A stretch of DNA of 64,000 nt from assembly GCA_964016885.1 (NCBI GenBank), contig OZ024751.1, forward strand, positions 25,854,001 through 25,918,000, read 5' to 3'. Below are positions 19,405 to 62,452 of this stretch, piece by piece. The translations under genes and the position numbers were made by a program. Each line of letters opens with the position of its first letter. Positions within the stretch are counted from its first letter, which is position 1. The notes below the pieces were generated by a model. It was given only the letters and a program-made list of their open reading frames with translations, ran no database searches and was not told where the DNA came from. Origin of the DNA: Eledone cirrhosa (Eukaryota).

Positions 19405-19625
19405 TATAACAAAGAGGGCGTGGTAAGATACCAGGTGGAACCTAACGCACCAGAGTACTCAATACTTAGGGTAGTAGAGTGGGTAACAGGAAAAGAGTCA
19501 GGACCCCGACGGCTGAGCTCCGGCCGTTTCGACCCGCTAGATCCGTTCGGGTAGCCTATGTGGAATCCGTTCGGATCTATCTGTCGAAACGGCCGGAGTT
19601 CAGCCGTCGGGATCCTGAAAGTTTT

Positions 19626-19630
<5 letters not shown>
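19405..19630 (-). mobile_element. Fold-back element family B (half-hammerhead palindrome), diverged subfamily
   Basis: Imperfect inverted arms 19488-19628 containing GAAACGGCCGGAG(T/C)TCAGCCGTC; tail homologous to 20907-20987; (TA)n on both sides. Confidence 0.75.
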
Positions 19631-19671
<41 letters not shown>

Positions 19672-19675
<4 letters not shown>

Positions 19676-19981
19676 AAAGAATAGAGGTGCAACACACAAG
19701 TTATTATATATTGGTAAACGGAATAGAAAATGCTGACAAATTGTTCACAATTGAAAAATGGTTTAATTAGGAATAAAAGAGTATTAGTGATTGTATGGGT
19801 TAGTATTCAGTTGTGGTTTTAAGTTTTTAAAAACTTAAAACCACAACTGAATACTAACCCATACAATCACTAATACTCTTTTATTCCTAATTAAACCATT
19901 TTTCAATTGTGAACAATTTGTCAGCATTTTCTATTCCGTTTACCAATATATAATAACTTGTGTGTTACACCTCTATTCTTT

Positions 19982-19985
<4 letters not shown>
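19672..19985. repeat. Spacer-less 314-bp palindrome between (TA)n tracts
   Basis: 157-bp arms, centre 19828/19829, one mismatch seen. Confidence 0.95.
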
Positions 19986-20042
<57 letters not shown>

Positions 20043-20906: not shown

Positions 20907-21103
20907 ATAACAAAGGAAATGTGGTAAGGAACTAGGTGGACCATAACGCACCAAAGTACTCAATACTTACGGTAGTAGAGTGGGTAATAGGAACGAGTAA
21001 GACCCCGACGGCTGAGCTCAAGCCGTTTCGACGGCTAATTCTGGACTAGAATTAGCCGTCGAAACGGCTTGAGCTCAGCCGTCGGGGTCCTACTCGTTCC
21101 TAT
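20907..21103 (-). mobile_element. Fold-back element family B
   Basis: 55-bp inverted arms 20987-21103, loop TGGACTA; flanked by (TA)n. Confidence 0.85.
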
Positions 21104-51656: not shown

Positions 51657-52445
51657 ATGTGGAGAATATTTATCCTTTCGTCAATACATAAGCCACACGA
51701 CGGATTGCCACTTGCGTATGGCTTGGACTTTGTGATGGTTTTCCATTGAATGGAGTAGTCTATACCTGAGTTCTTGGGGGACCATACGTGGCTCGCGAGT
51801 TTCGTGGATGATCGTTCGTCCGGATACCTAAAGGTCGACTGATGGTTCATGAAGCGTTCCTTAAATCGGCCCTCCGCCATACCCACATAGGATTTGGCCT
51901 CCTGTGGTTGATTTGGTCGGTTGGAAGTGACCACAGCTTCATAAACTACAGCGGGTGTGTTGCATTGTGGTTGAAGGGGACAACCTTCAGGTCTTTGGGA
52001 AGAGCATCCTGGTGGGGTTCTGCTCTTAGGCATGTTGGTGAAGCGGGCCTTCATATTCTTAGCGCAGGAGTACCCTAGTTTTACTCTGTGTCTGTTAAAG
52101 ATGGAGCGGCATTTGTAACTTATGGAAAAGTGTCTATCTAAGAGGGCTAAACATGTTTTTCCTACATTAGTTTTAACGTTGAGTGAGAGGGGAGGAGAGA
52201 ACGAAAGTTTGTCTATTGTTACGATTTCTTTTCTTATTGCTATTGTTGTTAGTGGAGGAGTAAGTAATTGGTTGCGAGAAGCCGCTGTTAGCTAATGCCG
52301 TGTTATAGTAGGGTGCCGCTCTGTCAGATAGCCTTATTAGAGAAGAGATTAGAGATTCTAGTACTGATATTATTTACGAATTTTCTAAAATCAGTAGGAG
52401 GGTGGCATGGGTCCTTGTGCATGTAATGTAGTTTTTCGTTTAGCT
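51655..52445 (-). mobile_element. Penelope-like element, RT thumb and GIY-YIG endonuclease fragment (decayed)
   Basis: YMHKDPCHPP, SPPLSLNVKTNVG, KLGYSCAKNM, CPLQPQC..VVYEA..YVGMAEGRFKERFMNH..KLASHVW..CGLCIDER. Confidence 0.9.
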
Positions 52446-58498: not shown

Positions 58499-58503
<5 letters not shown>

Positions 58504-58690
58504 AACGAGTAGGACCCCGACGGCTGAGCTCAAGCCGTTTCGACGGCTAATTCAGTCCAGAATTAGCCGTCGAAACGGCTTGAGCTCAGCCGTCGGGGTC
58601 CTACTCGTTCCTATTACCCACTCTACTACCCTACGTATTGAGTACTTTGGTGCGTTATGGTCCACCTGGTTCTTTACCACATTTCCTTCG
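58499..58690 (+). mobile_element. Fold-back element family B
   Basis: Perfect 55-bp arms 58499-58614, loop AGTCCA; (TA)n on both sides. Confidence 0.85.
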
Positions 58691-60857: not shown

Positions 60858-61180
<323 letters not shown>

Positions 61181-62314: not shown

Positions 62315-62443
62315 ATAAAATATTAAAAAAATAATGAATAAAACAATGAAACAGTTCCTTATACTAAACAAAAATCGTTAAATAATGAACTTTTTTTGTT
62401 TAATATAAGGAACTGTTTCATTGTTTTATTCATTATTTTTTTA

Positions 62444-62452
<9 letters not shown>
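62315..62452. repeat. AT-rich hairpin (about 60-bp arms) abutting (TA)n
   Basis: ...GAAACAGTTCCTTATA... / ...TATAAGGAACTGTTTC... Confidence 0.85.

What the first reader, a model, noticed from the sequence alone, without database searches (positions are those of the whole stretch)
20907..21103. Family B: palindromic elements built from two 3' halves of a hammerhead, with flip/flop loops
Seen: four copies (19405, 20907, 58499, 60986), each with a 55-70-bp GC-rich palindrome, a one-sided about 80-nt tail and (TA)n on both sides. Each arm has GAAAC-GGC..GCC-GTC^GGG (hammerhead stem III and GUC site) but no CUGANGA half. In tail orientation the loop reads TAGTCCA, AGTCCA, or the inverted TGGAC type (60986 copy). 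The short arm always stops at CCTA(T). Inference: repeated independent fold-back at stem II, or a hairpin intermediate resolved in two orientations. Half-ribozymes could also be substrates cleaved in trans.
Basis: partly seen in the sequence, partly recalled or inferred. Interest (0 to 1): 0.78.

Follow-up and report, generated by a model that had tools for sequence, protein, structure and literature searches.

The report
Mini inverted copies of Penelope retrotransposon
These palindromes are short, head-to-head insertions of a Penelope-like jumping gene with over ten thousand copies in this genome, and their junctions suggest that each was likely made by two separate copying events that ran off the start of the element's RNA inside its hammerhead ribozyme, which would explain a long-unexplained shape of these elements.

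Summary
The four copies are real. They are 5'-truncated inverted insertions of an autonomous Penelope-like element (PLE) with Hydra-clade motifs. The parent lies elsewhere in the genome, with a telomerase-like RT ORF and the missing 5' hammerhead half. Its core is UUGANAA (known U3-A8 variant, 3,650 exact matches) or CUGAGAA (877), not CUGANGA. The 80-nt tail is the start of the next unit, between two fixed ends, A and B. Inverted pLTR plus tail is a published PLE shape.

What is new is the junction census. Of 137 paired insertions, 135 join an A-ended arm to a B-ended arm. Both arms stop sharply at -32 to -45 from the cleavage site, in hammerhead loop II. Of 118 junctions, 106 are distinct and 9 have non-overlapping arms. 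Arms ending at -40 often carry an untemplated G. A minor class ends exactly at the cleavage site.

Best reading (0.65): two internally primed cDNAs run off a capped RNA 5' end and are end-joined. Flip versus flop depends on which arm ran further. Fold-back with later rearrangement is not excluded (0.17). One test of the cap signature was strong, one weak and one not significant. No RNA data tested the start site.

The parts
19405..19629 (-). Copy 1, divergent relative: tail end B near 19405, long arm on the minus strand, centre about 19534-19577 with a short internal duplication, short arm ending at CCTA at 19629
20907..21048 (-). Copy 2 long (B-ended) arm: tail about 20910-20986, cleavage site between 21007 and 21006, 5' end at -41
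21048..21103 (+). Copy 2 short (A-ended) arm: starts at -35 with 1-nt microhomology, GTC^ between 21083 and 21084, ends at CCTA
58499..58553 (-). Copy 3 short (A-ended) arm, 5' end at -34, blunt junction
58554..58690 (+). Copy 3 long (B-ended) arm; starts at A(-40), the inferred main RNA start; hammerhead 3' half plus tail
60986..61045 (-). Copy 4 short (A-ended) arm, 5' end at -39; it supplies the inverted loop
61046..61180 (+). Copy 4: 3-nt filler, then long (B-ended) arm from -32 through the tail

Best explanation
Each palindrome is a very short inverted insertion of a Hydra-type Penelope-like retrotransposon, likely made when both nicked strands of a (TA)n target primed reverse transcription, one at site A and one at site B, and both cDNAs likely ran off a capped RNA 5' end inside hammerhead loop II and were then joined end to end. 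Positions count from the ribozyme cut (+1 is the first base after GUC): A is about +17 and B about +96. Shown: the parent element, the A+B rule, the sharp 5' limit near -44, junction diversity and the filler bases. Inferred: twin priming, a transcription start at A(-40) and A(-44), the cap origin of the extra G, and host end-joining. A minor class ending at +1 likely copies RNA cut by the complete ribozyme.
For: Parent: L063 minus strand has hammerhead, A, tail, B, a 794-aa open frame, 3' UTR, hammerhead, A, tail, B, then (TA)n. The top fold match is telomerase TERT, 3du5, E 7e-9. Long copies end at A in 15 of 30 and at B in 15 of 30. 135 of 137 paired insertions are A+B. Of 118 close A+B pairs, the 5' end lies in -45..-32 for 89 A arms and 73 B arms and beyond -45 for 1 and 1; 9 do not overlap; joints are microhomology 46, blunt 20, filler 52. 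Over all 369 arm ends: 210 in -47..-32, 5 in -100..-48, 19 further. Both arms at -40 (574 insertions, first 50 read): single filler G/C 21 versus templated T/A 3; C(W)G 12 versus G(N)C 0. Control at -34 (first 50 of 1,176): single fillers 16 templated, 0 G/C; Fisher p 1.5e-8. Untemplated G marks capped L1 and SVA RNA (PMC4859970, passages). A purified PLE protein cuts and extends both strands and starts internally at two sites that bound the tail (PMC11167929). Both arms end exactly at +1 in 30 of the first 50 of 344 near-cut insertions, with single fillers A/T 7 and G/C 0. Arms share minor alleles at 42 of 44 sites; shuffles give mean 20%, maximum 37%.
Against: The cap test on my 118 loci was not significant: G in 7 of 18 at -44/-40 versus 16 of 67 elsewhere, p 0.24. 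At junctions directly after (TA)n, the base before A(-40) was T 58, G 15, C 12, A 4 of 89 distinct places, so G barely exceeds C. A template variant with C at -41 (7 of 80 long copies) can explain some single G/C fillers, and the CAG filler can also be parsed as a templated insert. Shared alleles fit fold-back equally well. Spacer inversion and later deletion in palindromes could mimic flips and non-overlap. The +1 class is not enriched in subfamilies linked to the U3-A8 core (8 of 50 versus 14 of 58, p 0.34) and could be an RT stall near stem III. In D. virilis Penelope the start site appears to lie upstream of the ribozyme (PMC2377424 passages, PMC4209133). The A anchor sampled one haplotype, and the census loci all come from contig C1.
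Confidence: 0.65

Rival explanations
1. Self-priming or fold-back: one strand (a B-primed cDNA or an antisense template) snaps back near -40 and copies itself to site A, where it joins the TA target. Flips and non-overlapping arms come later, by spacer inversion and deletion.
For: Arms share subfamily alleles at 42 of 44 sites. The B arm is as long or longer in 59 of 118. Palindromes are prone to rearrangement (general knowledge). PMC3846280 Discussion favours self-priming.
Against: The A arm reaches further in 59 of 118 and 9 do not overlap. Site A is the end of the long arm in 15 of 30 long copies. Both arms carry a sense-G in 12 of the 16 junctions with 2-3-nt fillers, and 10 of 50 have no loop at all. 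Both strands are extended in vitro (PMC11167929).
Confidence: 0.17
2. Twin priming is right, but the stop at -32 to -45 is a block to RT (bound protein, structure, or an RNA-processing cut in loop II) and not a transcription start.
For: The cap tests are weak. Ends are spread over 14 nt. Loop II holds a pyrimidine-tract/AG stretch that resembles a splice acceptor (seen in sequence).
Against: RT has already passed the GC-rich stems, and predicted pairing inside loop II is short and A/U-rich. The limit coincides with two initiator-like motifs (consensus recalled). An oriented G occurs at -40 but not at -34. No constant upstream exon appears in the fillers.
Confidence: 0.12
3. The short palindromes are a self-propagating non-autonomous family (MITE-like, SINE-like or hairpin replicon with two loop states) whose half-ribozymes are cut in trans.
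For: Very high copy number. Some junction types recur: 5 and 3 of 118 for -40/-34. Extra T residues absent from 15 long templates are common. Short copies could keep an internal promoter.
Against: 106 distinct junctions among 118; asymmetric A and B ends; a continuum up to kilobase arms; several subfamilies give the same shapes.
Confidence: 0.05

Closest known systems
Hydra clade of Penelope-like elements (Craig et al. 2021, PMC8557442), e.g. Hydra-1_Obim and Penelope-13_HM
   Same: Single ORF with RT and C-terminal endonuclease; RW[K/R], DKT, CxC-x5-C linker, CxxC and CxH around the conserved E and N; (TA)n targets; hammerhead in the pLTR; a 5'-truncated inverted copy is noted for Penelope-13_HM.
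   Different: None of the Hydra hammerheads in its File S2 has a U3-A8 or C3/A8 core. Here loop II is about 30 nt, the tail is about 80 nt rather than 30-40, the unit is about 3.3 kb rather than under 3 kb, and most copies are minis cut off inside the ribozyme.
Poseidon PAc of Anolis (Frangieh et al. 2024, PMC11167929)
   Same: Two internal RT start sites that bound the tail, AT-rich targets, both strands cut and extended, hammerhead upstream of the start sites.
   Different: In the parts read, there is no account of inverted copies or 5' run-off, and no RNA ends were found at the ribozyme cut. Here genomic junctions pile up at -40/-44 and at +1.
PLE hammerhead variants (Cervera and de la Pena 2014, PMC4209133)
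   Same: Type I hammerhead in the pLTR; U3-A8 covariant core (Cercyon); palindromic loop III; opposite-strand pairs 100-700 bp apart were noted.
   Different: Helix III here is about 6 bp and long enough for a monomer; one abundant subfamily has the C3/A8 mismatch.
L1 twin priming and cap-derived G (reviewed in PMC4859970)
   Same: 5' inversion from priming on both strands; untemplated G at full-length 5' ends.
   Different: L1 inversions copy different parts of one RNA from the poly(A) end (recalled). Here both primings are at fixed internal sites and usually copy the same 55-60 nt twice.
Non-LTR retrozymes (bioRxiv 10.64898/2026.07.22.740005)
   Same: Non-autonomous sequences derived from PLE pLTRs.
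   Different: Retrozymes are direct tandem units with a whole hammerhead; these are inverted and lack the 5' half.

Membership tests
Penelope-like element (EN+) | Telomerase-like RT in a single ORF | tested here: met
   794-aa frame with YRDD; top Foldseek hits are TERT. Pfam and PDB sequence searches of the protein itself gave 0 hits; RVT_1 hit 1 of 16 alignment members.
Penelope-like element (EN+) | C-terminal GIY-YIG endonuclease | tested here: inconclusive
   A VIY..YIG motif with R, H, E, N is seen; one homologue is named a predicted GIY-YIG endonuclease; Pfam GIY-YIG hit 1 of 16 members at E 0.014. No fold search of that domain alone was run.
Penelope-like element (EN+) | Partial tandems (pLTR), inverted 5'-truncated copy, one-sided tail | tested here: met
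   L063 partial tandem, L014 and L069 long inverted forms; 135 of 137 pairs are A+B.
Hydra clade | RWK, DKT, CxCX5C linker, CxxC/CxH, no CCHH, (TA)n target | tested here: met
   RWR (RWK in most homologues), DKT, CNC-x5-C in several copies (F in L063), CNLC, CKH; no CCHH seen, against PMC8557442 section 11.
Hydra clade | Placement in an RT phylogeny with named Hydra elements | not tested
   Only a by-eye comparison of motifs with the first 400 aa of Hydra-1_Obim; no tree was built.
Type I hammerhead ribozyme (parent) | Three stems around the core, with positions 3 and 8 paired | tested here: met
   Stems I-III appear in the predicted fold of L302, L305 and L308 but not of L309 or L048. U3-A8 in 3,650 matches with N7 = G 78, T 14, A 8 of the first 100.
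Type I hammerhead ribozyme (C3 subfamily) | 3-8 base pair | tested here: not met
   877 matches with C3; A8 in 100 of the first 100.
Type I hammerhead ribozyme (parent) | Self-cleavage | not testable with these tools
   Only indirect: both arms end at +1 in 30 of 50.
Complete hammerhead (window copies) | 5' core present | tested here: not met
   Absent from all four copies; Rfam 0 hits.
MITE | Matching TIRs at both ends, fixed internal sequence, DNA-transposase parent | tested here: not met
   The ends are A and B, junctions vary, and the parent encodes an RT. TSDs cannot be read inside (TA)n.

The most novel reading that the evidence does not exclude
The element's promoter starts transcription inside loop II of its own hammerhead. 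The mRNA's 5' end then holds only half a ribozyme and keeps its cap, while the whole ribozyme in the 3' pLTR cuts the 3' end, leaving a roughly 40-nt terminal redundancy. RT primed at A or B near the 5' end makes a strong-stop cDNA that must jump to the 3' end, as in LTR elements, to make a long copy. The thousands of mini palindromes would be two strong-stop cDNAs that failed to jump, and the PLE tail and pLTR would be products of this strand transfer. One locus (L167) has the shape of such a jump to an internal site.
Probability: 0.25. Interest if true: 0.82.

Novelty: new variant of a known kind. Interest (0 to 1): 0.52.

Why it matters
How PLEs make inverted pLTRs with a one-sided tail, and whether their hammerheads cut in vivo, are stated open questions (PMC8557442, PMC11167929, PMC3846280). 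This family offers thousands of near-identical, very short insertions whose junctions can be counted. They point to priming on both target strands at two fixed internal sites, a likely RNA start inside the ribozyme, and a likely cleavage footprint at +1. Each point gives an exact coordinate for a cheap test. The element itself is an ordinary kind of repeat; the value lies in the mechanism it records.

Tried and rejected
Rfam search of the window: 0 hits. Pfam and PDB sequence searches of the parent protein and of the 16-member profile: 0 hits for the protein itself. Reading the core as CUGAGA with position 7 deleted was rejected once U3-A8 copies with variable N7 fixed the register. Naiad clade rejected: its endonuclease is N-terminal. 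Splicing as the cause of the stop rejected: arms keep the AG and upstream T residues and no constant exon follows. under-called partners through strict patterns and was replaced; over-extended some ends by using 14 templates, so end positions for pairs are taken (one natural template; 17 of 135 A+B pairs with gaps over 25 nt dropped). The 95 'single' arms include long arms and missed partners and are not counted as true singles. Cap test on held loci not significant; single-sided test weak. Subfamily enrichment of the +1 class not significant. Test that full-length copies start at -40: 0 of 40 fetched regions reached a 5' end; among held loci 3 copies run into the ORF, 2 partial tandems and 1 starting at -37. 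No RNA holder listed. Contigs of runs X1 and X2 (kind not on record, one study, possibly the source sample) show loose ends at B, A and -44 and a 9- to 20-fold fall in summed depth past about -49; this is weak support only. The fold used the wrong stretch and was discarded. Earlier scan findings: nothing by sequence or by words. Literature searches listed no paper that I could see reporting a start site inside a PLE hammerhead, cap-G at PLE junctions, or PLE twin priming; I read only the papers named, and most subscription papers are not held.

Full report
Observation. The four copies are present as described. Three are 95-97% alike; the 19405 copy is a divergent relative with another centre. 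The genome is 3.0 Gb in 1,796 contigs. Exact matches number 16,695 for a tail-end 32-mer and 7,350 for a (TA)n/short-end 30-mer, with 0 for the reversed controls. Rfam finds nothing in the window.

Parent. Two of the 30 loci run on upstream into the 5' half of a hammerhead, and that upstream DNA has many long copies. Extending ten of them and three other loci gave an ORF. L063 (G000 C5, minus strand) reads: hammerhead, site A, tail, site B, a 794-aa open frame, about 0.9 kb of 3' UTR, hammerhead, A, tail, B, (TA)n. The tail is therefore the first part of the next unit. Sequence libraries miss the protein, but it has 82 homologues among 8,000 scored candidates, and its model (mean pLDDT 78.9) matches telomerase RT best. 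Its motifs fit the Hydra clade as defined in PMC8557442 section 11, and Hydra-1_Obim in that paper's supplement shows the same motifs by eye. Inverted truncated copies with a one-sided tail are a published PLE feature.

Ribozyme. With +1 as the first base after GUC, the core starts near -88, stem II pairs about -78..-67 with -34..-24, and loop II is about 30 nt. The core is UUGANAA in 3,650 exact matches, with N7 = G 78, T 14, A 8 and A8 in all of the first 100. U3-A8 is a described PLE variant (PMC4209133). A second group has CUGAGAA (877 matches; A8 in all of the first 100), which breaks the 3-8 pair that PMC11167929 shows to be needed. It is likely impaired yet has spread, in line with that paper's finding that cleavage is not needed for insertion in vitro. 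The two counts use slightly different patterns. Most arms never reach the core: about 4,500 core matches against more than 24,000 end matches, a rough ratio.

Junction census. I took 190 loci on contig C1, 100 anchored on end B and 90 on end A; the A anchor selects one haplotype. Of 137 paired insertions, 135 are A+B, 1 is A+A and 1 is B+B. For the 118 A+B pairs with gaps up to 25 nt, 89 A arms and 73 B arms end in -45..-32, and only 1 of each ends further upstream. Over all 369 arm ends, 210 fall in -47..-32, 5 in -100..-48 and 19 beyond (looser calling). This is a cliff, not gradual truncation. In 31 both arms carry loop sequence, in 9 the arms do not overlap, and 106 junctions are distinct. 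Joints are microhomology 46, blunt 20, filler 52; 9 of 28 fillers of 5-25 nt match nearby element sequence better than shuffles, as expected of end-joining (recalled). Arms share minor alleles at 42 of 44 sites in 63 pairs, so both come from the same subfamily; this does not separate one RNA, two RNAs or fold-back.

Why the cliff. It falls on two initiator-like motifs with A at -44 and -40 (consensus recalled). Where both arms reach -40 (574 insertions, first 50 read), the fillers are: none 10, single G/C 21, single T/A 3, CG 2, CAG/CTG 10, other 4. The reverse order G(N)C was never seen, so the extra base is a G before A(-40) in the RNA sense, where the template has T. At -34 (first 50 of 1,176) all 16 single fillers are the templated base (p 1.5e-8). 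Untemplated G is the accepted mark of a copied cap in L1 and SVA, and Penelope has an internal promoter. Against this: the test on my own loci was not significant (7 of 18 versus 16 of 67); after (TA)n the base before -40 was G 15, C 12, A 4, T 58 of 89; 7 of 80 long copies have a templated C at -41. The -44 class (657 insertions) shows lengthened T runs, absent from 15 long templates, which suggests slippage at an RNA end. I put the start-site step at about 0.7.

A second stop. Among 344 insertions with both ends near the cut, 30 of the first 50 have both arms ending exactly at +1, 16 have one arm there and 4 do not; single fillers are A/T 7 and G/C 0. The pattern allowed centres up to 14 nt, so +1 was not forced. 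This fits an uncapped end made by the ribozyme. A stall near stem III is possible, and there was no enrichment in U3-linked haplotypes (p 0.34).

Mechanism. A PLE protein has been shown to cut and extend both target strands and to start inside the RNA at two sites that bound the tail. With that, the simplest account is one priming at A and one at B on opposite strands, run-off at the RNA 5' end, and joining of the two cDNA ends. Sites A and B lie within 140 nt of the inferred start, so the products are tiny. The published alternative is self-priming (PMC3846280). It needs later inversion to explain A-longer arms and later deletion to explain non-overlap; both are possible in palindromes, so I keep it at 0.17. 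The boldest reading adds a strand transfer from the strong-stop cDNA to the ribozyme-cut 3' end. Its only direct hint is L167, where a B arm ending at -39 is preceded by a -37..+917 piece and then an inverted A arm.

Papers seen. PMC11167929: parts 1-2 of 4. PMC4209133: parts 1-2 of 4. PMC8557442: passages, section 11, supplement parts 1, 2 and 7 of 59. PMC3846280: passages and Discussion. PMC2377424: passages and section 15. PMC4859970: passages. bioRxiv 10.64898/2026.07.22.740005: part 1 of 5, supplements not seen. Unread supplements and papers not held may already describe parts of this.

Verdict. The feature is real and belongs to a known class with a known gross shape. The element is a new family; its ribozyme core, 80-nt tail and stop inside loop II make it a variant. 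Interest 0.52, mainly because the junctions make an open mechanism directly testable.

Noticed in passing
L167 (G000 C1:25027400-25031300, minus strand): (TA)n, inverted A arm to -39, then -37..+917 including the ORF start, then -39..+96 and (TA)n; it looks like a run-off cDNA that jumped to an internal site. Single example.
   Followed up: partly
window 19670-19990: A near-perfect palindrome of about 320 bp with no loop between (TA)n runs, unrelated to this family; possibly an inverted insertion of another element.
   Followed up: no
window 6597, 23009, 57888 (minus), 60265: Other hammerhead-like motifs with a canonical CUGANGA core next to (TA)n; the last three look like one family.
   Followed up: no
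window 51662-52370 (minus): Fragment of a related RT/endonuclease ORF, 29-43% identity to the parent protein, E 2e-28.
   Followed up: no
window 62315-62452: A 60-bp-arm A/T-rich inverted repeat with an 18-nt spacer beside (TA)n.
   Followed up: no
junctions listed: T runs of 4 to 22 before A(-40), longer than the 3 in long templates; may be slippage by the telomerase-like RT or by RNA polymerase at initiation. The two arms of one insertion agree in some cases and differ in others.
   Followed up: partly
L032, L067, L071, L073 flanks: ORF pieces of other PLE-like and LINE-like families lie within a few kb of many copies, so several families share the (TA)n targets.
   Followed up: no
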